Origin: Vermamoeba vermiformis
Taxonomy: Eukaryota
DNA length: 64,000 nt
Direction of reading: 5' to 3'
Assembly: GCA_045837725.1 (NCBI GenBank)
Contig: JBEWZL010000201.1
Span: 1-64,000, forward strand
This document shows, in pieces, positions 20,193 through 31,779 of this stretch; the first letter of the stretch is position 1; each line of letters begins with the position of its first letter. Below the pieces are notes generated by a model. That model was given only the letters and a program-made list of their open reading frames with translations, searched no databases and was not told the DNA's origin. The position numbers and the translations under genes are program-made.

Positions 20193-22171
20193 ATGTGGTC
20201 TGCATTGGCTAGAAGTGGTCGCAGTGGTATTAATAAGGTACATATAATCTTAATACTCTCAATACTAAGGCAATACGGTGATGATTTTCAATTAATTGGA
20301 TCAATTATTGAAATAAATAACAAAAATTTTAAAAATAAATTTGATTAGGTTAATACATCAAACACTGCGAGTAGATCACATCGTATCATTCGTTCTGAAA
20401 AAAGATATTTGACCACCGAACCTAAACCAAATCCGCCTCAACAAGCAGCCAAACCACCCACGAGCACGAATACTACGCCACCCCACCCCCCAAACCTAAC
20501 ACTACCACCAACAACACCATCAAGATACAGACCAAGCCCAAAAAGTCGCACGGATTGCGCAACTTTCTGCTGCTGACCACACTGACGGGCGGTGCAGTGA
20601 CCGCAGCAGTGGTGATGAGTCCTGAGGACAGCGCGCTCCGACAGTACGCCTATCAACTGCTCAATATAGACACCAAGAGCAGTCTGCTCTCCAAACAGCT
20701 CACACGTGCCATCGAGAAAGAAACACCCCACGTGACTGAAGCACGTGACTCGCAGCCAATCAGCGCCGAGCCAGTGATTGACGTCTTGAACGATGAAGTG
20801 ACGACGCCGAGTGAAGAGGAGCCAGTGGGCATCATTGAAGTCGAGACACCTGTCACTGAAGAGCACGTGACACCTGTCACCTCGGACACCGAGCCCCACG
20901 TGATTGAACCACGTGATCAGATCGCAGAATTAGAGCACGTGCTTGAAGTGTCGGAGTCAGTCCCAGAGCACGTGTTGACTGAAGCAGCGGAACAATTGCC
21001 CAGCGAACCAGAGACGAGCGCGGAGTCAGTGCCAGCACCGTTCAGTGAACCAGAAGTGTCACGTGACGAGTCTGTCACTGAGCCAGCAAGCACACCAACA
21101 GCCGCAGATGACAGCGAGGAGACACGTGTCAAACAGTTGACAGCGCGCATCGGTGAGTTGCAGGACAAGATGAGCAGCTTGGAGCAGATAAAAGCGCAGA
21201 TGGACGAGTTGGCGCAGCGCATGAGCAACGAGACCTCGAAAGAAGCTGAAGTCGTCAAAGAGGTCGTCAAGAAGTTGCAGCTGCAGAACGAAGAAGAGCG
21301 CGCTCGCTTTGAACGCGAACTGAGCGAACAACGCCGCGCCCTGGAAGAGAAATACGCGCAAGAGATTGAACAGGCGCTGCAAGTGGTGGGACGCGAGATG
21401 GAGGACAACTTGAGCTCGCTGCAACAGGCCTATGTGGCACAACATCAATCGCGCATTCAAAAGCTGCAACAACTGCAGTCAGTGGTGCAACAAGAGAGCA
21501 CTGCGCGTGAGATGTATCGTCAGTACGACTACGAGAGTCAGCGCATGCATCTGTTGGACATTGTGCTCATCAATCTCTTCAACAAGATTGTTGATCGCAA
21601 GCCATTTGTGCAAGAGCTGCAGTCCCTCAAAGCAGCTGCCAAGGGCAACGAGGCCCTCGAACTCGCCGTCAACAGCATCCCTGAACGAGTGGCGAGCGAG
21701 GGACTGGTCTCAGTCGAGGACCTCAAACAAGAATTCGATCGCATTTCTCGTTCATTGCGCCGCGCAACACTGTTACCCGAGGACAAAGAGAGCGGTCCGT
21801 TCAGTGAACTGTACGCCACACTTGTAGAGCGATTGAGACACGCCACCAATTACAAATACGACGCATATCTTGACGGCGAGGATGGCTGGGCTGTGCTGTC
21901 GCGTGTTGAATACGAATTGAAGCGTCAAAATGTGCGCGCATCAGTGAAAGAATTGGAGAGCCTGGCGAAGCTCAACAACAAAGTCCCCGCTGAACTCGCT
22001 CGTACGTGGTTAGAACGCGCTAAGCAGTAAGTAATCACTCTATTGATTGAGAACACTACTAACTATCTTTGCAGGCATTTGATCACATTACAAGCACTGC
22101 ACATTCTGCAAGCGAACGCTACTGCCCAAACAGTACAAGTATTGAGCAAAAACCCGTTCAACCACAAATAA
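20193..22171 (+). CDS. MIC60: MICOS subunit Mic60/mitofilin-like
   Basis: Presequence, single TM (FLLLTTLTGGAVTAAVV), long coiled coil, C-terminal mitofilin-like domain (PFVQELQSL...VLSRVEYEL...ARTWLERAKQ). Confidence 0.75.
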
Positions 22172-22261
22172 ATGGTGCATGTTTGAGAATTATAACTAGC
22201 GTATTTACTTCGAATTTACAGTGAGGTTACAGTCAACGATAATTAAAGAAAAGCTAACAGG

Positions 22262-23733
22262 TTAGCAGCAGCCCCTTCGAGGAGCAGGCTTGTTAGCACC
22301 ATCAGTGCCCTCTGCGGGTTCGTCTTCGGGCTTGAGCTTGATAACATTGCCTTCTTTGGGTTTAGCGGGTTCAGCAACATCCGTTTTCTTGACTTGCAAT
22401 TTGGCGGTTTGTGCCTTGTAAATTTCTGCAAGCAATATTAGCTTTTCAGAGGAAAAGAGTCCAAAACGATTGTTTTGTGCAAAAAAGGTCAATCGGAGAA
22501 GGAAATGTGAGCTAGTGTGCATTTCAAGCTAATTGGTGCATTAGGAAGCTCGATAAAAGCGCCAAAAAAAAAAGGTATTGCCTTCAGTGGGGTTCGAACC
22601 CACGCGTGGCTGAACCACATCAGATCTTAAGTCTGACCCCTTAGACCAGCTCGGGCATGAAGGCTACTGGTGATGGTCCGTTTTCGAAATTTTGGAGCCC
22701 GACCAGTGCGAAATTGAATTATTCCTCTCCTTGCAAAATCTCACCAATTTAGTGTGCGTAATCACGTACCTTGAATAATCTTTGCGAAAGCAGCATCTAC
22801 TTGAGCACCAGTCTTGGCAGAAGTCTCAATGAAGCTCAAACCATTCTTGGCGGCGAAGTCTACGCGAGTCAGGTGAGCAACGCGCGGCTAATATTGTTGC
22901 AGCAATCGCCACGTACCTTTGCCTTCTTGCGTGGAGACTTGGCGAGCACTTTGCAAGTCGGACTTGTTGCCGACGAGCATGACAAGAATGCCAGGCTCAG
23001 CGTGTCCAGTCAACTCTTCGAGCCACTTCTCGAGGTGTTCAAATGAGGCCTTGTCAGTGACGCTGTACACGAGCAGACCACCAACAGCACCGCGGTAGTA
23101 ACTGTTCACCATTTCTGTTAGATCTCCGCCTTATTATTGCATTAATAATCATTCTTACCCTCTAGTCAATGCCTTGAATCTCTCTTGACCAGCTATAGTA
23201 ATAAAGGTATCAATACACCGCGCAGTTCAGGTTTAAAAATTTGATCGCATTTTTCTAATACACAAGAATAATTCTGATTCTGCCATATTAATAGGCAAAT
23301 CAAACACTCTGTAATTATTAACTGTGCTATAGAATGTAAGGAATTATTCTCGTACGAAAATTAAATTTCGGGTTTATAAAATCCGGATGTAGTGTTGCAA
23401 ATTATATTATATTAGCAGCAATCGCTTACCAGTATCCCAAATTTGAGCTTTAATAACCTTTTCTTCAATTTTGATAGTTTTATGTCCAAACTCGACACCG
23501 ATGGTGGTGCGTGCTTCCTCTCTGAAAATATTGGTTGTGTAGCGACTAATAAGATTGGATTTGCCGACACCAGAGTCTCCAATAACGACAACTATAATTA
23601 TAATTAATAAGAGCTTTCGAGGTGAAAAAAAAACTGGATAAACGGTCGTTCGGTAGCAAATCAACCGAAAGACAGCACGCTTACTCTTGAATAAATGGTC
23701 GTATTGGTCTTGTTCTTCAATTTCGTCACCCAT
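22262..23733 (-). CDS. RAB11: Rab11-family GTPase
   Basis: [58 protein letters not shown]-terminal GCC; multi-exon. Confidence 0.92.
22579..22664 (-). tRNA. trnL-UAA: tRNA-Leu(UAA), intronic in Rab11 (intron 22426-22769)
   Basis: GCCTTCA/TGAAGGC acceptor stem, anticodon arm TCAGA-CTTAAGA-TCTGA, long variable arm, GGTTCGAACCC T-arm, discriminator A, followed by an oligo-T terminator. Confidence 0.95.
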
Positions 23734-23973
23734 TATATTGTTGAGGTGTGGTGTTCAGTTGCGTGAGATGTAAATTTGGTGCTGGCGACCGATCGGTTTT
23801 TTTTTTCAGCTTTTCGTTTTCAGATAAAAGACAACGAAGCAACCATCACTCTAGAACTTACTTCTCTTTGCAAACCGAATGTTCATATGCGTTATCGAGA
23901 GCTGATCAGCTACAAGAAACAAAAAGGTATTTATTAAAGAACAACAAACAACAATAGCGAAATTACATTTACA

Positions 23974-26434
23974 TTAGCCCCACAAGTTTTGATAGAGAGT
24001 TTTAAACGTGTTGGCAATTGAAAAGTTAGATTCGACATTAAACAGGGCATGTGCAATTCCGAGTTTGTTCTTATTGATTGGAGAATAGGGATACTTAGCA
24101 CCGAGCAACAAGCGCGAGGGTGCGCGAATAACACACTTCTCTACGTTGTCCAGGAAGTACGCATTGTGCACTACAATAGGCCATAATTAGAGCCGTTCTG
24201 CATCGAGTCACCGCCCGCACTACTCACCGAAGCCTCGACCTGATTGAATGTCTTGCGGAGTGTTGCCTGGGTACGCACCCCACACACACGAGCCAGTGAA
24301 GTAGGCCACTGAAGACCAGATATTGACACCTGTCACGCGGTCAGCTGAGTGTCGCTTGCACTGTGTACCATCGCGATAACTTACCGACACAGCCGTACTT
24401 GAGGTCTTTGATCGCGCGTTCAACAGCGGCACTGTGTGTCTTCTCAGTGTGCGCATCGACGAGCAAGTGACCAGAGAGATTGCCCCACACGTGATCGTTG
24501 CTGAACTGCACTGCTTTCTGCAAAAAGTCTTCAAGGTCAGTAGCCTCGAGCTCAATCTGACTGATGATGGGACAGAAGGGTTCAACCACCAGGGCGAGTT
24601 CACTGGGGTCTGCAGGCACGTTCTCAATGCTGCACAAATGTTAGACCTGTCAATTAGCTGCGTGTCACAGCGGTACTTACATAGTCCAAGGAATCGTCTC
24701 GCCTTCACCTTTAGGCGAAATGAGTGCTTCAGCTTGAGGGTAGCGCTCTAAGTAGGCTTTGTGGCGCTGATCTGAGCCGGGGTAATATCTGCGACACGTT
24801 AGACTCGTCGAATGGAAGAGCACAGTACTTACGGATAGCGTGAAGGCGAAACACTCAAGTACTTTTTCAAGGTGTCCATCAGTCGCTTCTTCTTGTCCCA
24901 GCCCTGCCACAAGTCAGTGATGAATATTGATTTGAATGTGATTAAGTACCTTCATCGTGATGATCAGCTTGGCAGCAGTGCAGTTGTACGAGTTGTTGAG
25001 TGCCACAGCTCTGCAAGTACTCGTCAGACACAGTTACAGCAACAGAACGATCAATTACCCTGCCATGTGTTCGGCTTGGTAGTCGAGCTCGGCATTAGTC
25101 CACTCACCAGGCACGACGATGAACTGACACAACGTGAGACATCGTTTCCGTAGGTATATATGCAATTATGTTATAATACTTACAGGAGTAACGCAACCCA
25201 ATTCAGAAGTGAATTCTTTGGTGAATTTGGGTTCGCCAATCTTCTTGGTCTTGTCAGTGGTGCCCCACACAATCATGTCATATGTCTTGTCGGAGCCAGT
25301 GACGTGCACATTGTCGACTCGTTCGAGGATATACGAACCAACTTCAGCACCGCCTTTAATGTGTTCGACAGCGTTGATCTAATGACACGTGTCAGCGCTA
25401 AATAGAAGCGCGGGATCGACTTACATCAAATAAAGGCTTCATGATCTTCTCAAATACGCTCTCTAAGTACTCGTTGACAGGATTGTACTTGACGAATACA
25501 ACTTGGTTCTGATTGTACAGTTTGTACAGTGCGTCCATGAACACGATGGAGTTCTGATTGCCACCTCCAAGTACCAATGAGATCTATTTGTATTAGTCAA
25601 CTGAACCCCTCCCTAGCGGTGACATACCTTTCCTTGAGCGCGTGGTCCATAGTTCTCGAGCAGTTCACCGGCCTGAGTGACTTCATGGCCAGGCAAGATC
25701 CAATTCTCAGCAATGACTCCGGGGAAGAGAATCTTCTCTGCGAAGTGATAAAATATAATTAGCGTCGTGTGTTAACAGCTAAAGAGTTCGACGACGCTAC
25801 CTTTACGTCCTGAAGGGAAGACTTGAACGCGGTATTGCCCTGCGAGTTTTAAAAGCAACGTCATTACTTTATAATACTAGCAATAATGCTCCGCACTGTC
25901 CTACCATCAACTTTCTTCGTGGTAGAAGGCTTGCCAAATTCAAGGGGCTTGCCTGCTTTTTCAGCTGTGACACAAAGAACCTTAGTAATCGATTTTAAGT
26001 CAATCTTTAGACTTTACCAGCAGCGGCGGGACGAAGTGTGTCGATTAATAAGCGACAAAGGCGTACTACAGGTGTGCATCCAGAAGCAATTTCCTCTTCT
26101 TCAAACGAAACTGGTAATTTACGGTGTTCCAAGGTGGTAGAAACCCACTATAATTGAAATCAGAAGCTGCCGATTGTAAATCACAATTTTATATCTTACC
26201 TCGTCCTTATATTTAGCAACATTTGCCATTATTTGCGCTAGAAATTTAATTTTCTGGTCGAAGGTAATCTTGATCCAATCATTTTGACCTTTCTTGAGCT
26301 TCTCTAATTTAGAATCAATAGTATTGCGAATCTGAATAAAATTGCGGTTAGAGAAATAATATTTGTCGGGAATGTCATGGTTGATCGGCGCAGAATATTG
26401 CACTTCCTAAACAAGAGCTTACATTGTCGTTCAT
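23974..26434 (-). CDS. aldehyde dehydrogenase-superfamily protein (atypical, bacterial-like subfamily), many introns
   Basis: Spliced motifs LGGGNQNSI...VFVKYNPVN, HVTGSDKTYD, TSELGCVTP, NSYNCTAAK (catalytic Cys), WGAYPGNTPQDIQSG. Confidence 0.8.
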
Positions 26435-27151
26435 GATGACCTTTATACGTGTAGTGTTACTATTTCTGTTGTGATAATCGACTGTTTGTTATATTACTTA
26501 CTAACTTTTTGTGTCACGTGTTGCGGGCCGCTCTTAAACTTCTCCGCAACTCAGAAATGCCGTTAATACATTCACGACTCACTAGCTACCTGCGGACGCA
26601 CTCTTCAAGTGACGTATACTCAAGGTGGCTTCAATCTCAGATCCTGATAATATTTGAGTGTCAAATTCTCTTTTTTGCCGGGCAAATAGGTATAAATAGC
26701 AATTTTCTCTCTTGTTTTTCATTCACTTTTTTGTTTCGCCCAGAGATTGAGAGAACCTTTCTATAGCCTCTCGATCTGGACGCGAAACGATATTAACTTG
26801 GTTACCTGGTTGTCGGTCTCCAAATCCTCTTTGTAGAGAGCGACATTAAATGGCAAACCATACACCGCTTTTTAAAAAATCATAAAAAAATAAACGGGGT
26901 TACTAGGGGTTATAGGGTTCGAGCGTAGTGCTCTTTGGTTGTATTGGACAATTTTTAAAATAAATTTTGATTTTTTTTTTAATCTGGGATGATGAGCTTG
27001 GTTCGGGTTAGGACTGCTTTTGGCACTTTGTGTTGACGTTTAGAGACTAAAATTTTATTCGCCAGTTAACGTTGAAAAGTTCCAAACCTATTTGGAGAGC
27101 TGTTATGAAAATGTCTCGCTTTTTCTAGTTGAGCGTCATTAGCCATCCACA

Positions 27152-30100
27152 ATGGAAGAAGATACTATTAATCGCATCGTTTTAGCAATTCAAACTCAAT
27201 TAAGCCCAGTAGCAACTCAGGCACAACGGCAAGAAGCTCAACAGGTGATCTACTCGAGATCTGGATCGGATCTTTTAATCAAACACCAAAAAATTAATTA
27301 AGCTTATTATTAGAATTTTGTTCAATAGTTGAGGTGTTGAATTTTATTTGTATTAATTTTTTATTATCTGCATCTCTTTCGCAGAATCGCTAACAAGCTT
27401 ATTTTACAAAGTATTGCGAGGAATTTAAGAATAATGCGCGTTCAGCATACTTCGCATTTCATCTGCTGCAAAGTAAATATGACGCGCCCGTAAGACACTT
27501 CGGGCTGTTGCTGCTGGAGACACGGATCAAGACAGACTGGCAAATATTTAGCGAGCAACAACGTGATGGAATAAGAAAATCGATAATGAATTTTATCGCA
27601 GGCGTAAGTGTTCAGCAGGTTTGAAATTTTCGTTGTAACACGTCGGACAGGGAACTGGCGACGTATTGGAGGAGCAGCAATACATCAAAGAGAAGGCCGC
27701 TGCTCTCGTTGTTGAAGTAGCGAAGAGAGATTGGCCTCAGAAGTGGAAAACACTCGTGCCGAACTTGTTTGAGATTGCTAGAGCTGGAGAAAAGCAAATA
27801 GAACTCGTATTGTTAGTGTTGAAGAACCTGGTGCTGGAAGTCAAGGAGTACAACGACGACTTGCCAACGAGTCGCAGAAAAGATTTGAGCAACGCTCTGT
27901 TACACGAGGCCGATGGTATATTCACCTTCTTCTATCAAGTGCTCGAAATGAGTTACGGCAAATACAAAGCCGCAAAAGAACAGAACTTGCCGACACTAAA
28001 GAAAGACGTCATATTAGTCACTACTGCATTGACAGCTATTCACGCCTATTTTGAACTCACGCCGATCGAGTACGTAATTTGACACCTGTCTAACTGACTA
28101 ACAACGCTTTTACAGCCAAGTGTTAAAATACAATTTGCACTCAATTTTCTGCCTGGTTTTGGGCGATATACCATTTAGAATGGTTGCGTGCGAGGGTATT
28201 CTTACTTTAATCAGCCGAAAGGAGAAAGAAAAGTCTGACAGCGTCAAACTCTTGTTCCCCTTTCAAAGTATGGAGGGTATTGCCGCTTCATTAAAACAAT
28301 CAAGCGGAGATCAAGCTTCGGACTATAATTATATCAAATCGTTGGCGAAAGTGCTTATTCAGTTGGGTCTGAATAATCTTTCAAACTTCAATCCACAGCA
28401 GCTGCCCCCGAGCTATCAACCGTACGTTCTCTTTGGCTTTTTTAGTCCTAATTTCATTTAATAGATTTTTGGATCTCATGTTAGAGATTACAGCTCACCC
28501 GAGTCTCGTGATCACATACGAAACAATTGTCTTCTGGCAGCGATTACTGGACAATGCTTACTTTAGACAGGTACGTCGTGTCCATTGTTAATTTCCTTTA
28601 CTGACGTCAGGGTATAGAACATAGATATGAAAGGGCTTTGTTTCAGGCTTTTAGAAGCATTGGACGAAAAGATTCCAAAGTGGAACCGCGCATCAGAAGA
28701 GGCAAGCAAAAATTTTGCGACGTGGCGCGGTGCCTTCTTCTGGAAAATGGATTTCGAGTACAACGACGAGTTTATGCACTTCTACTCACAAGCAAGAAGC
28801 AAGTTTGGTACATTTATTACTCAGATCGCCTCCATTGCGGTAAGTCTATTTTCGACCTTGTCGGGCTCCAAAATTTCGAAAACAGGCCATCACCAGTAGC
28901 CTTCATGCCCGAGCTGGTCTAAGGGGTCAGACTTAAGATCTGATGTGGTTCAGCCACGCGTGGGTTCGAACCCCACTGAAGGCAATACCTTTTTTTTTTT
29001 TGCACTCACCGCGAGCTAGATAATTCCTTCTCTGCCACATTTCCTTCTCCCGATTGACCTTTTTTGCACAGCCGCAAGTCGCGCTGGAATTTGTCGGTAA
29101 AAAGTTCGGTGCCCTCTCCGCTTCAATCGCCAAGTCAAACCCACAAAACCTACAAAAAACATCGCTGGAAGTAGTTTATTTTGAGGCCTGTGACATGCAA
29201 ATAAGCTCAATTATGAATGGTGTCAATCCATCACTTTTCGATCCGTCAAATCCAGAGGTACTAGTACCGCTGTCTATTCTTCCACTGTACTCACAATTCC
29301 TTTTATAGGCCCAGCAAACAATCTTGCTCACTGAGGGATTATTGAAACTAATCTTCGATTTCTCAAGCACGGTACGCACAACAGTAGCACTTCGATGCGA
29401 ATTAAGATCTCTTTTTAGGAGCCGTTGCTCGTGGAACATCAGATCGCAGCTCTCAAGTACTTTAAGAAGTACTACCAAGCCCATCAGACCTCTCTTGAAG
29501 TTGTTTTAACAAAGGTAAGTCCTACTGTTCCACTATCCAATTGCTGACACGTGCCAGCTCTTGAGTCTCGTGCTCTTCAAAAGGCCCAACGAACCCACTC
29601 TCGACTCACTGTCCAAACCGACACTTGAGGCCCGACGCAAAGCCGCGACTACATTTATTTTTTTGTGCGACACTTTGCCAGACAAGCTCGTAGCACACGT
29701 GCCCAAGTTGATCGGTGCCGTGAAGGAAATGTTCGGCCAGCTATTGGACTCCGAGAAGATCTATTTAATCGAAGCATTGGCCTCGGTGAGCAACGGCATG
29801 AAGAGTTTTGCAGCACAAGAACAGTACTTGTCTCAACTGCTGGCGAATGTGGAGGAAGAATGGTTGGCCCCTGCAGTTCAAGAGTGCTTTACAACCATCG
29901 ACCAACTGCTCACCACGCTCAATGTCCATCCACAGGCCACTCCAGCGCAGCGAGAACAGAACGCTCCCATCGCTAAGGCTAAACGTGGCGTAAGTTTAAT
30001 TACAAGTCAATTAGTTTCTCTAATGTCACTTTCAGGCCATTTACCGATTGATCAACACATTTTACTATATTTGGAAGCGCGTATCAATGCCATCCACACC

Positions 30101-31779
30101 TGAAGAACTAGTGCAGGGCGGCTATTTGGACGCAGCAGTGGCCATGCAAGTTGTGAATGACTTCCAAGAAGATCCTTCAGTCAAGAAGAAGAAAATTGAC
30201 GAGAACGAAATGCGCACTCGTCTCAAACAACGTCTGCATCGTGCAGCACACCACCCACTGTCTGCGCACACGCGCCGTATTGCCCCCAGCATTCTAGCGC
30301 TGACTCGCTCTCTGCAAGCTGTGTGGAGTCCAGCAGTGCGTCAAGCATTGCCCGCTGATTCAGCGCCGATATTTCAAATCGATCCGGCGCGAGCATCAGC
30401 GCTGTTGAATCCCAGCCAAGAGCAGCCCAAACAAGCACCTAACCGCGACAACGACATGGCTATGATGCGCCATTGGCTCGAGTCCATGCGCGAGGTGTGC
30501 TACAGTCTGATTGGCAAGTTCATTGGCGAGCAACAGGGCAGTGTGGTGCGTGACTTGTCCTTGCCCCAGTCGCTGCTGTTCAACTTTGAGCACATTGAGA
30601 ACCGTCACTTGTCCATATTCATTCGTACGTCCACTTCATCTAAACAAGAATGCTTACTGATTCGTAACAGGACGTATTCTCAAGAAGATTATGGTATTGC
30701 CACCAGATACCAATCAAGAGCTCGTTAATTTCTTGGCCCAATCGTGCATGTTCGTGTTTGATCGATTGATGAAGTCCTGGACTGCCAAGCTCGCCACAGC
30801 AGCGCATCCCTTCACTCCGAACAATGAAGAGACCATCGCTGCAGAAGTTATCAACGAAGCTCTGTTGCACAATCTCAGTCGTGAATTTTCTGCGTTCATG
30901 AAAGAAATGTTGTTTCAAATGTCTCACTCGTGGACTGGCAGCACGCACGTGGATATGGGCAACTCACCTGCCCCTAGCGCCATATTTAATTACCTCTTGC
31001 AGCAGAATGTACGTACAAAAATCACTTTCATTCAGTGAACTGACCATTCATGAACAGATGGCCAAACCAATTCTGGGCGGTGTGATTGAATGCCTCAAGT
31101 TCCCTGATTCAACAATCTTCTCCAATGCCTTTGCAGTCTGCTGCGCTCTGTTGCCTGTGTTGTTTGGACAGCCCGAACAGCTGCTGCAAGGTGCGCCCAT
31201 GCAATTCGATCAAGACCGATTGGTCAATTACGCCAAGCTCGTGGGTCAAGATCTCGTGACCAATCTCCTCGGTGTGCTCTGGACTCCGATTGGTCAAGAG
31301 AGACACGCGCAGATCTTAGGTGCGATAGGTCTCATCTTCTTGTTCTTGCGCGCTGTCAGTCAAGCCACGGGCAGCGAACAATACCTCAATCTCATGTTCC
31401 AGATCTTCACCAAACTGCCCAACTCGAGTGACGCCGCTGTGATTGTAAGTCCTTCCATTGAAGCACGAGCCCCAGACTAACAACTCACCAGGCCCTGCGT
31501 GATCTCCTGTACAAATCTAAGCCGAACACCGTCAGAAATGTGCTGCGCTCATTCTTGGCTGATGTGTGCTATGTAAGTCGGTACCTGTAATAGAAACACA
31601 AGTGTTAATCGGGGTGGCAGGTCAAGCTGGGAGGTGATGGCAAGAAGCCGAGCAACATTGTCGAACACTCCGAGAAGGTGTTGAACTCGGGCAAATTGCA
31701 AGCCAAGGCCCAACAACAACAAGCCGAGAACGACAGCTTTGCCGCAATGCTTGAGGCACTGTACACTGACGACCGATAA
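27152..31779 (+). CDS. XPO5: exportin-5/Msn5-like karyopherin-beta
   Basis: IBN_N region (QAQRQEAQQYCEEFK...VRHFGLLLLETRIK.DW), IKEKAAALVVEVAKRDWPQKW Xpo1 domain, helical repeats; many short introns. Confidence 0.8.
28899..28984 (+). tRNA. trnL-UAA: tRNA-Leu(UAA), intronic in XPO5 (intron 28840-29071)
   Basis: 86 nt identical to the reverse complement of 22579-22664; oligo-T terminator at ~28990-29001. Confidence 0.95.

What the first reader, a model, noticed from the sequence alone, without database searches (positions are those of the whole stretch)
28840..29071. A tRNA-Leu(UAA) cassette that is essentially a whole intron and recurs inside an intron of an unrelated gene
Seen: the 232-nt XPO5 intron (28840-29071) and the 344-nt last intron of Rab11 (22426-22769, minus strand) each hold an identical 86-nt tRNA-Leu(UAA), both sense to the host pre-mRNA. 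Homology extends past the tRNA. There is a shared ~40-nt leader (gtcgggctccaaaatttcgaaaac..ccatcaccagta), with weaker similarity reaching almost to the XPO5 donor. There is a shared atacc-oligo(T) terminator. After a diverged spacer comes a ~35-nt block, cacatttccttctcc(c)gattgacctttttt-gcaca (29036-29070 vs 22476-22509). In XPO5 this block supplies the likely branch point, pyrimidine tract and 3' AG; in Rab11 the AG is absent and the intron ends ~50 nt further on. Most gene-body introns here are only ~45-60 nt. Inference: either a tRNA-carrying, splice-competent mobile unit (introner/SINE-like) or an intron copied into another intron. Either route would let a compact genome add Pol III genes inside introns without disrupting host genes.
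Basis: partly seen in the sequence, partly recalled or inferred. Interest (0 to 1): 0.75.

Follow-up and report, generated by a model that had tools for sequence, protein, structure and literature searches.

The report
Old intronic tRNA gene, duplicated nearby
A leucine tRNA gene has sat inside one intron of an exportin-5 gene since before two species diverged, and almost that whole intron was later copied once into an intron of a neighbouring Rab11 gene, which looks like ordinary tRNA-gene duplication rather than a jumping element.

Summary
Two identical 86-nt tRNA-Leu(UAA) genes lie 6.2 kb apart on opposite strands. Each is sense to its host, inside a Rab11-like intron (22426-22769, -) and an exportin-5-family intron (28840-29071, +). 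They share a leader, an ATACC-oligo(T) terminator and a 35-nt downstream block.

New here: the shared segment is almost exactly the XPO5 intron. It reaches the donor (17 of 3000 shuffles) and stops at the acceptor.

A metagenome contig from a related species (L001) holds the identical tRNA in an intron at the same XPO5 codon boundary, although 35 of 50 four-fold sites differ. So the XPO5 arrangement is old, not a recent insertion.

I found no third copy, no target-site duplication and no terminal inverted repeats. The introner/SINE reading is therefore not supported. "An intron copied into another intron" stands as a description.

The copying mechanism is open. Closeness and inverted orientation favour local DNA copying. 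The match of the copy's ends to the intron's ends keeps RNA-mediated intron transposition alive at about 0.2.

No whole genome was held, and splicing of these two introns was not seen in RNA. Nested intronic tRNA genes are well known. Interest is modest.

The parts
28840..29071 (+). XPO5 (exportin-5 family) intron, 232 nt, GTAAGT..CAG, phase 0. It is the ancestral host of the tRNA gene.
   Evidence: The frame continues only if the intron is removed. An intron sits at the same codon boundary in L001, at 1995-2215, 221 nt. Exportin-5 Pfam hits on downstream exons.
28841..28859 (+). Outermost 5' part of the shared segment: weak homology to Rab11 22704-22721, about 13 of 19 positions with one gap. 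It reaches the XPO5 donor.
   Evidence: Anchored extension score 6, reached by 17 of 3000 shuffles and by 15 of 3000 random window 40-mers.
28860..28898 (+). Leader, the inferred Pol III upstream region. It holds an A/T-rich box AAAATTT at -29..-23 (28870-28876) and a polymorphic triplet at 28884-28886.
   Evidence: 37 of 39 identical to the Rab11 copy. The proximal ~25 nt and an A/T-rich box near -30 are also kept in L001, although neutral sites are saturated. The promoter role is inferred.
28899..28984 (+). tRNA-Leu(UAA) gene, 86 nt, class II with a long variable arm.
   Evidence: ARAGORN; Rfam 57.6 bits; cloverleaf fold at -32.8 kcal/mol. Identical to the Rab11 copy and to L001 2038-2123.
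28985..29001 (+). ATACC followed by T12: the inferred Pol III terminator.
   Evidence: Read from the sequence. ATACC plus a T-run is identical in the Rab11 copy (T10) and in L001.
29002..29035 (+). Spacer, 34 nt, poorly conserved.
   Evidence: Diverged from the 54-nt Rab11 spacer. Roughly 54-64% identical to the second Rab11 haplotype as I rebuilt it.
29036..29070 (+). Downstream block. In XPO5 it holds the branch-like TTGAC, a T6 tract and the acceptor region.
   Evidence: 97.1% identical to 22509-22476. TTGAC fits the CTRAC-type motif seen 8-17 nt before the AG in 14 RNA-supported introns. No RNA structure (z -0.17) and no Rfam family.
22426..22769 (-). Last intron of the Rab11-like gene, 344 nt, GTACGT..CAG. 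It has 47 nt and 50 nt of its own sequence around the copy.
   Evidence: The spliced frame ends in the prenylation tail ..GCC*. Ends shown. The neighbouring introns are spliced in X21 and X6.
22476..22721 (-). Copy of the XPO5 intron inside the Rab11 intron: weak 5' part 22704-22721, leader 22665-22703, trailer ATACC+T10 22564-22578, spacer 22510-22563, block 22476-22509. The positions matching the XPO5 terminal G's are both A.
   Evidence: Present in independent samples X4 and X6.
22579..22664 (-). Second tRNA-Leu(UAA) gene, identical to the first.

Best explanation
This is an ordinary nested RNA polymerase III gene that was duplicated once, locally.

A tRNA-Leu(UAA) gene has long lived inside one intron of an exportin-5-family gene. 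That intron has shrunk to little more than splice signals plus the tRNA gene unit: an upstream region with an A/T-rich box near -30, the tRNA with its internal promoter, and an ATACC-oligo(T) terminator.

In the lineage of the window, a segment nearly co-extensive with that intron was copied once, in inverted orientation. It landed 6.2 kb away in the roughly 97-nt last intron of a Rab11-like gene, giving a second tRNA-Leu(UAA) gene that looks fully functional.

I take DNA-level local copying as the most likely mechanism (about 0.45 of the total). That means template switching or repair synthesis using nearby sequence, possibly followed by gene conversion between the two copies.

Shown: the two copies; the extent of homology; the age of the XPO5 arrangement; the absence of transposon marks.

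Inferred: autonomous Pol III transcription; the promoter role of the leader; the direction XPO5 to Rab11; the DNA-level mechanism.
For: - Identical intact tRNAs with shared flanks.
- L001, from a related species (86% amino-acid identity in one exon; 158 of 184 residues over three exon blocks), has the identical tRNA in an intron at the same phase-0 codon boundary. All XPO5 intron positions in the aligned stretch are shared, while ordinary introns cannot be aligned. 35 of 50 four-fold sites differ. So the XPO5 arrangement is old.
- The conserved proximal leader, the A/T-rich -30 box and ATACC plus T-run are under constraint, as expected for Pol III control elements.
- The window's two copies are far more alike (leader 37 of 39, block 34 of 35) than the two XPO5 orthologues are. 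So the Rab11 copy arose, or was last homogenised, after the species split.
- The Rab11 intron keeps its own 47-nt and 50-nt flanks and its own splice signals. That fits an insertion into an existing intron.
- No TSD and no TIR. No third copy in the window. The only hit in three collections is the orthologous locus.
- The copies are 6.2 kb apart and inverted, as expected for local DNA-level copying.
- The same leader alleles (AGG, AGC) occur at both loci in different strains, which hints at inter-locus gene conversion.
- Precedent: 264 of 608 C. elegans tRNA genes are nested in introns, and 52% of those arrangements are conserved in C. briggsae (PMC3342880, passages read).
Against: - The ends of the copy coincide with the ends of the XPO5 intron, to within about 1 nt at the 3' end and about 1 nt at the 5' end by the weaker homology. 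Arbitrary DNA breakpoints would do that only a few times in a thousand by my rough estimate.
- The copy is sense to its new host, as an RNA-mediated route requires. For a DNA route this is a 1-in-2 chance.
- Identity along the copy is mosaic: about 68%, 95%, 100%, about 55-64%, then 97%. A single recent neutral duplication does not predict that. It needs a mutation hot spot in the spacer, gene conversion, or constraint on the block.
- The Rab11 locus of the L001 species was not recovered, so the direction and age of the copy are not shown.
- No whole genome was available, so further copies elsewhere cannot be excluded.
- Reads from a relative (X21) show a third kind of locus: a head-to-head pair with the same 11-nt proximal leader. 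X4 shows this tRNA with another trailer.
- Neither tRNA-bearing intron was seen spliced in RNA. An X6 contig carries the Rab11 tRNA intron unspliced next to a spliced neighbour.
Confidence: 0.68

Rival explanations
1. Whole-intron transposition through RNA. The excised XPO5 intron, as a lariat or circle, was reverse-spliced into Rab11 pre-mRNA or into single-stranded DNA of an R-loop at the highly expressed Rab11 gene. It was then fixed in the genome, taking the nested tRNA gene with it. Later the now-internal donor and acceptor were disabled (GTAAGT to ATAATT, CAG to CAA), because cryptic sites inside an intron would cause mis-splicing.
For: - Homology spans 28841-29070 of the 28840-29071 intron. 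It is significant up to the donor (17 of 3000 shuffles) and not beyond the acceptor (195 of 3000).
- The copy is sense to the host transcript.
- There is no TSD or TIR, as expected for this route.
- Rab11 has much more depth than XPO5 in the RNA run X6: about 140-240 against 0-2.
- The idea is current in the field. Ares et al. 2024 (PMC11146597, passages read) favour reverse splicing into R-loop DNA and cite two laboratory transposition events in yeast.
Against: - An RNA-mediated copy has no obvious reason to land 6 kb from its source.
- The source gene is barely expressed where measured.
- A tRNA inside the free intron should be cut out by RNase P and RNase Z (established knowledge, recalled).
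- Both terminal G's differ in the copy. That equally fits their never having been copied.
- The 5' 19-nt homology is weak, about 13 of 19.
- A faint similarity continues about 25-35 nt past the acceptor into the XPO5 exon (p about 0.07-0.18). If real, it would contradict an intron-exact unit.
- The copy does not function as an intron where it landed.
Confidence: 0.2
2. The direction is reversed. The tRNA cassette lived first in the Rab11 intron. Before the split from the L001 lineage, a local copy inserted into an XPO5 exon and was spliced out from the start, which created the XPO5 intron. That would be intron gain by insertion of a tRNA gene segment. The present near-identity of leader and block would come from gene conversion.
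For: - It explains both coincidences at once. The copy equals the intron because the insert had to be removed exactly, and the closeness follows from local DNA copying.
- The XPO5 intron has no sequence of its own outside the shared segment. In L001, too, it is little more than the tRNA unit.
- Shared leader alleles at both loci fit gene conversion.
Against: - A random internal piece of an intron would have to carry a working donor, branch site and acceptor at its very ends.
- The Rab11 copy would have to be older than a species split at which neutral sites are saturated, yet its neutral parts still align with XPO5.
- No outgroup data exist.
Confidence: 0.07
3. The cassette is one member of a multi-copy mobile family (introner-like or tRNA-derived SINE) that spreads Pol III genes through introns.
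For: - Two copies have flanks conserved beyond the tRNA.
- Other contexts of the same tRNA, with the same 11-nt proximal leader or the same ATACC trailer, appear in X21 and X4.
- No whole genome was available to count copies.
Against: - No TSD and no TIR, and no A-rich or repeat tail.
- The tRNA is intact and identical across a deep species split.
- The XPO5 site is ancestral.
- There is no third copy in 64 kb.
- The only hit in the metagenome, genome and viral collections is the orthologous locus.
- An X1 contig runs through the leader and tRNA without breaking, which argues weakly against high copy number.
Confidence: 0.05

Closest known systems
Nested (intronic) tRNA genes, as catalogued in Caenorhabditis (PMC3342880)
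   Same: A complete Pol III tRNA gene lies wholly inside a spliceosomal intron of a protein-coding gene. It is conserved in the orthologous intron of a related species, and such genes turn over by duplication.
   Different: - The host intron here has shrunk to essentially the tRNA gene unit.
- The duplicate is nearly co-extensive with that intron.
- The duplicate lies in another intron only 6.2 kb away, in inverted orientation.
Introners and introner-like elements of algae and fungi (search listings and abstracts seen for PMC3609843, PMC3879977, PMC4540971; passages of PMC11282704)
   Same: A whole intron recurs as a sequence unit in an unrelated gene, in sense orientation.
   Different: - Those families have tens to hundreds of copies and create new introns in exons. 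Some carry TSDs or stable structures.
- Here there are two copies, and the source intron is ancient.
- The second copy is not an intron of its own.
- There is no TSD, TIR or structure.
- None of the papers I looked at describes an introner with a tRNA gene; 9 papers hold all three terms, 7 were listed, and I read passages of 2.
Spliceosomal intron transposition by reverse splicing (model; PMC11146597)
   Same: The copy's ends match the donor intron's ends. It is sense to the target, and it has no transposon marks.
   Different: - The target is inside an intron, not a proto-splice site in an exon.
- The terminal G's are not kept.
- The copy lies next to its source.
- No RNA intermediate is shown.
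tRNA-derived SINEs
   Same: tRNA sequence with an internal Pol III promoter, duplicated together with flanking sequence.
   Different: - The tRNA here is intact and conserved.
- There is no tail and no TSD.
- The copy includes about 59 nt upstream and 70 nt beyond the oligo(T) terminator. A Pol III transcript would not contain those.
Fast-evolving tRNA-gene flanks, i.e. transcription-associated mutagenesis (PMC6130373; search listing and start of abstract seen)
   Same: The spacer just after the terminator is the most variable part, both between the two copies and between Rab11 haplotypes.
   Different: The upstream leader and the downstream block are not variable, so the pattern is patchy rather than symmetric around the gene.

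Membership tests
Nested intronic Pol III tRNA gene | Intact tRNA with cloverleaf and internal A and B boxes | tested here: met
   ARAGORN; Rfam 57.6 bits against a cut-off of 29; class II cloverleaf fold. GGTTCGAACCC read in the T arm; that this is the B-box consensus is recalled.
Nested intronic Pol III tRNA gene | Lies wholly inside a spliceosomal intron of a protein-coding gene | tested here: met
   Reading frames, GT..AG ends, and the same XPO5 intron in L001. A spliced RNA junction for these two introns was not seen.
Nested intronic Pol III tRNA gene | Own Pol III terminator (oligo-T) directly downstream | tested here: met
   ATACC followed by T12, T10 and T11 in the three loci.
Nested intronic Pol III tRNA gene | Transcribed by Pol III independently of the host gene | not testable with these tools
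   The only hints are the conserved A/T-rich -30 box and the terminator. RNA-seq depth on the tRNA is about 1-3 reads.
Introner / introner-like element | Many near-identical copies acting as introns in unrelated genes | tested here: inconclusive
   Two copies in 64 kb. The only public hit is the orthologous locus. No whole genome is held.
Introner / introner-like element | Recent insertion: the intron is absent from orthologues | tested here: not met
   L001 has the intron and the tRNA at the same codon boundary, while 35 of 50 four-fold sites differ.
Introner / introner-like element | Transposon marks (TSD, TIR) or a stable structure | tested here: not met
   The best direct repeats are 4-5 nt and lie 7-10 nt from the boundaries. 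TIR matches are 4-5 of 12, at or below the random median. Fold z-scores are -0.6 to 0 outside the tRNA.
tRNA-derived SINE | Degenerate tRNA-related head, body, A-rich or repeat tail, and TSD | tested here: not met
   The tRNA is intact and identical in L001. There is no tail and no TSD.
Spliceosomal intron transposition (reverse splicing) | Copy co-extensive with the donor intron | tested here: met
   Homology covers 28841-29070 of 28840-29071. The 5' part is weak but significant (17 of 3000). Extension past the 3' end is not significant (195 of 3000).
Spliceosomal intron transposition (reverse splicing) | Copy keeps GT..AG and works as an intron at the new site | tested here: not met
   The copy has A at both terminal positions (ATAATT....GCACAA) and lies inside the Rab11 intron.
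Spliceosomal intron transposition (reverse splicing) | RNA intermediate | not testable with these tools
   No data.

The most novel reading that the evidence does not exclude
The Rab11 copy is a natural footprint of spliceosomal intron transposition. A complete excised intron, carrying a working Pol III tRNA gene, was reverse-spliced into a neighbouring highly transcribed gene. It was kept there because it adds a tRNA gene, while its own splice sites were silenced. Introns would then act as vehicles that move Pol III genes around a compact genome.
Probability: 0.18. Interest if true: 0.7.

Novelty: new member of a known kind. Interest (0 to 1): 0.33.

Why it matters
Nested tRNA genes and their birth-and-death turnover are well known, so the main finding is ordinary.

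Two aspects have some value. First, it shows how far a compact genome can trim a host intron. The XPO5 intron is little more than splice signals wrapped around a tRNA gene with its upstream box and terminator, and it has stayed that way across a deep species split. Second, the duplicate matches the source intron end to end. Few natural cases exist in which one spliceosomal intron can be recognised as a copy of another. If relatives confirm the exact boundaries, this pair would be a small but clean test case for RNA-mediated versus DNA-mediated intron copying.

Tried and rejected
- Whole genome: none is held. No genome-wide tRNA census or copy count was possible.
- Free local alignment of the 80-nt outer flanks gave nothing above chance (1609 of 2000 and 709 of 2000 shuffles reach the score). 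I replaced it with an anchored test.
- Homology past the XPO5 acceptor into the exon is not significant (195 of 3000 shuffles; 542 of 3000 random 40-mers). I neither accept nor exclude it.
- I suspected that the X6 contig with a shorter spacer was a chimeric assembly path through the XPO5 copy, and rejected that. The rebuilt spacer is not the XPO5 type, and it matches the X4 loose end. The rebuild depends on how the listed deletions are placed. I tried both placements, and one of them clashes with a listed substitution.
- X21 carries the same species label but is not the same strain: 231 of 247 laid reads are 95-99% alike. It covers only the Rab11 exons and the tRNA, so it says nothing about splicing of the two tRNA introns.
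- Another RNA in the block, the spacer or the other long introns: none. A permissive Rfam scan of 22000-29500 gave only the two tRNAs plus two sub-threshold antisense matches to a plastid family over the tRNAs themselves. Folds equal shuffles.
- By eye, the block's GATTGACC is not a convincing second B box. I did not test this further.
- Scans of genome contigs and viral contigs with the tRNA core gave 0 hits.
- Organism: not determined. The protein search found only L001's product (1 hit among 1539 candidates), and the Atlas gave only "Eukaryota, exportin-like".
- Complex prediction, structure prediction and fold search were not used; they have no bearing on this question.
Full report
**What is there**

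ARAGORN finds exactly two tRNA genes in the 64-kb window. Both are 86-nt tRNA-Leu(UAA), at 22579-22664 (-) and 28899-28984 (+). Rfam scores each at 57.6 bits against a gathering score of 29. The sequence folds as a class II cloverleaf with a long variable arm.

The two genes are identical, and one 140-nt stretch covering leader, tRNA, ATACC and the T-run is 98.6% identical between them. The 24-nt core of the leader occurs exactly twice, against 0 expected. After a diverged spacer (34 nt against 54 nt) comes a 35-nt block that differs by one 1-nt indel.

**The hosts**

- The plus-strand gene is an exportin-5-family member: Xpo1 domain at 6.2e-19, and PF19273 at 38.2 and 54.9 bits on two exons.
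- The minus-strand gene is a Rab11-like GTPase: Ras family at 7.9e-18. The best solved-structure matches are RABA1a, Rab11 and Rab-11A, though the margin over Rab2 is small on this one 61-residue exon.
- Both tRNA-bearing stretches are introns by reading frame. Removing 22426-22769 gives a Rab tail ending ..GCC*. Removing the 232 nt of 28840-29071 keeps the exportin frame open (IASIA|PQVALEF).
- Both tRNAs are sense to their hosts, and the two copies point away from each other, 6.2 kb apart.
- In a run with spliced contigs (X6) and a raw RNA-seq run (X21), 13 of the 15 listed joints skip 44-65 nt. The others skip 93 and 237 nt.

**How far the homology goes**

A free local alignment of the outer flanks shows nothing. 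An anchored extension test asks how far similarity continues outward from the conserved core.

- Upstream it continues 19 nt. The score is reached by 17 of 3000 shuffles and by 15 of 3000 random 40-mers from the window. That brings it to within one base of the XPO5 donor.
- Downstream of GCACA it does not continue significantly (195 of 3000; 542 of 3000).
- The shared segment is thus 28841-29070 of the 28840-29071 intron. In the Rab11 copy, the positions matching the intron's first and last G are both A.
- The Rab11 intron keeps 47 nt and 50 nt of unrelated sequence on either side, with its own donor, CTAAT branch-like motif and acceptor. Without the copy it would be an intron of about 97 nt.

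**The decisive comparison**

I scanned the metagenome contigs with a 37-nt core of the tRNA. It returned one contig, L001, which is the exportin-5 orthologue of a related species.

- Its product is 86% identical to one window exon.
- The locus is 74% identical in DNA over 2.1 kb.
- All intron positions in the aligned stretch are shared.
- L001 carries the identical 86-nt tRNA in a 221-nt intron at the same phase-0 codon boundary: IATIV|PEVALEF.
- The two species are deeply diverged. 35 of 50 four-fold sites differ, and ordinary introns cannot be aligned.

So the tRNA-in-XPO5-intron arrangement is old.

Against that saturated background, three things in the intron are conserved besides the tRNA: the proximal ~25 nt of the leader, an A/T-rich box near -30 (AAAATTT against TAAATTTTAT), and ATACC plus the T-run. 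I infer that these are the Pol III upstream element and the terminator. That inference rests on general knowledge of Pol III genes and was not tested here.

The block is only loosely similar in L001, where the region is pyrimidine-rich. In XPO5 it supplies a TTGAC branch-like motif 14 nt before the AG. That fits the CTRAC-type motif seen 8-17 nt before the AG in 14 RNA-supported introns.

**Is it mobile?**

The evidence says no.

- There is no target-site duplication. The best direct repeats are 4-5 nt, lie 7-10 nt from the boundaries, and are as common between random 18-mers.
- There are no terminal inverted repeats: 4-5 matches of 12, at or below the random median.
- There is no A-rich tail, and no structure outside the tRNA (z from -0.6 to 0).
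- No other Rfam family matches.
- The window has no third copy of leader, spacer or block.
- The genome and viral collections give 0 hits.
- The XPO5 site is ancestral, not a new insertion.

The caveat is large. No whole genome is held, so copies elsewhere cannot be counted.

Two hints of other contexts exist. In the relative X21, 2+2 reads join two copies of this tRNA head to head, with 42 nt between their 5' ends and the same 11-nt proximal leader. A contig in X4 continues from the tRNA into a different T-rich trailer. These look like further ordinary duplicates of the gene, not copies of the whole cassette.

**How the copy arose**

Two coincidences pull in opposite directions.

- The copy's ends match the intron's ends, and the copy is sense to its new host. 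That is what reverse splicing of an excised intron predicts. The model is under active discussion (PMC11146597, passages read).
- The copy also lies 6 kb from its source, in inverted orientation. That is what local DNA-level copying predicts and an RNA route does not.

Further points:

- The source gene has almost no RNA depth where measured (0-2, against about 140-240 for Rab11 in X6).
- A tRNA inside a free intron should be cut by RNase P and RNase Z (recalled).
- Both terminal G's are missing from the copy.
- I therefore put local DNA copying first (about 0.45) and intron transposition second (about 0.2).
- The reversed direction comes third (about 0.07). In it, a Rab11-intron segment inserted into an XPO5 exon and created the intron before the species split, and gene conversion has kept the copies alike since. 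It would explain both coincidences, but it needs a random segment to bring working splice signals at its very ends.

**The mosaic of identity**

Along the copy, identity runs about 68%, 95%, 100%, about 55-64%, then 97%. A single recent neutral duplication does not predict that.

Part of the answer is that the spacer is a hot spot. The Rab11 intron exists in a second haplotype, shared by X4 and X6. It differs from the window by about 20 nt of deletions and 6 substitutions within the spacer, but by only 2 substitutions elsewhere on the X6 contig (8 other letters in all over 22404-22859). Fast-evolving tRNA flanks are documented (PMC6130373, listing and start of abstract seen).

Part may be gene conversion. 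The polymorphic leader triplet shows the same alleles at both loci in different strains: XPO5 has AGG in the window and AGC in X1; Rab11 has GGA in the window, AGG in X4 and AGC in X6. Why the block stays nearly identical in the Rab11 intron, where it is not a splice site, remains unexplained.

**RNA evidence**

It is thin. No listed joint removes either tRNA-bearing intron, and 10 joints were not displayed. XPO5 is hardly covered. One X6 contig (656 nt, depth 178.5) carries the whole Rab11 tRNA intron unspliced, while the next intron is spliced out. Contigs cannot give levels, so this shows only that an unspliced form is present.

**Comparison with what is known**

In C. elegans, 264 of 608 tRNA genes are nested in introns, and 52% of these arrangements are conserved in C. 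briggsae (PMC3342880, passages read). A conserved intronic tRNA gene and its duplication are therefore a known kind of thing.

A search for papers holding "tRNA gene", "introner" and "intron gain" found 9 (7 listed). In the two whose passages I read, the tRNA mention was unrelated to introners. I cannot say more than that about what is in print. Supplementary files were not consulted.

**Verdict**

The mobile-element interpretation is not supported. "An intron copied into another intron" is supported as a description, with the mechanism open. This is a new member of a known kind, and interest is modest at 0.33. The boldest reading still alive is natural intron transposition carrying a Pol III gene, at about 0.18.

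Noticed in passing
window 27245-27385 (first XPO5 intron); L001 361-490: The first ~30 nt of this intron (GTGATCTAC.., then a GATC-rich, partly palindromic stretch) are conserved between the window and L001. Other introns cannot be aligned, and four-fold sites are saturated. It may be a regulatory or structural element at the donor.
   Followed up: no
reads of run X21 laid on window 22675 / 28888: In a related strain or species, 2+2 RNA-seq reads join two tRNA-Leu(UAA) genes head to head, with 42 nt between their 5' ends. Each has the same 11-nt proximal leader around an A/T-rich centre (table 5c). This is a third kind of locus for this tRNA.
   Followed up: partly
contig of run X4 laid up to window 28995: A water-metagenome contig continues from this tRNA plus ATACC and six T's into a different T-rich trailer of 110 nt (table 7). 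It is either another haplotype of the XPO5 spacer or another locus.
   Followed up: no
window 22510-22563 (Rab11 spacer): A second haplotype, shared by X4 and X6, differs by about 20 nt of deletions and 6 substitutions inside the spacer, but by only 2 substitutions elsewhere on the X6 contig. The window's version looks partly tandemly duplicated (AGCTT..ATGCAC occurs twice).
   Followed up: partly
window 28884-28886 and 22677-22679: The leader triplet at -15..-13 has at least four alleles among close strains, and AGG and AGC each occur at both loci. This is either inter-locus gene conversion or a mutation hot spot.
   Followed up: no
window 23193-23429: Rab11 has a second long intron of 237 nt, spliced in X21 and X6. 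No Rfam family matches it at E up to 1.
   Followed up: partly
window 22404-22859 (X6 contig): A transcript-run contig keeps the tRNA-bearing Rab11 intron while the adjacent 57-nt intron is spliced out. The tRNA intron may be spliced slowly or inefficiently.
   Followed up: no
window 27150-31500: The ancestral host of the tRNA gene belongs to the exportin-5 family, which is known (recalled) to export tRNAs and pre-miRNAs. This is probably a coincidence.
   Followed up: no
window 20426-22030: A 534-residue single-exon ORF upstream of Rab11 matches Mitofilin/Mic60 (PF09731, 3.3e-14).
   Followed up: no
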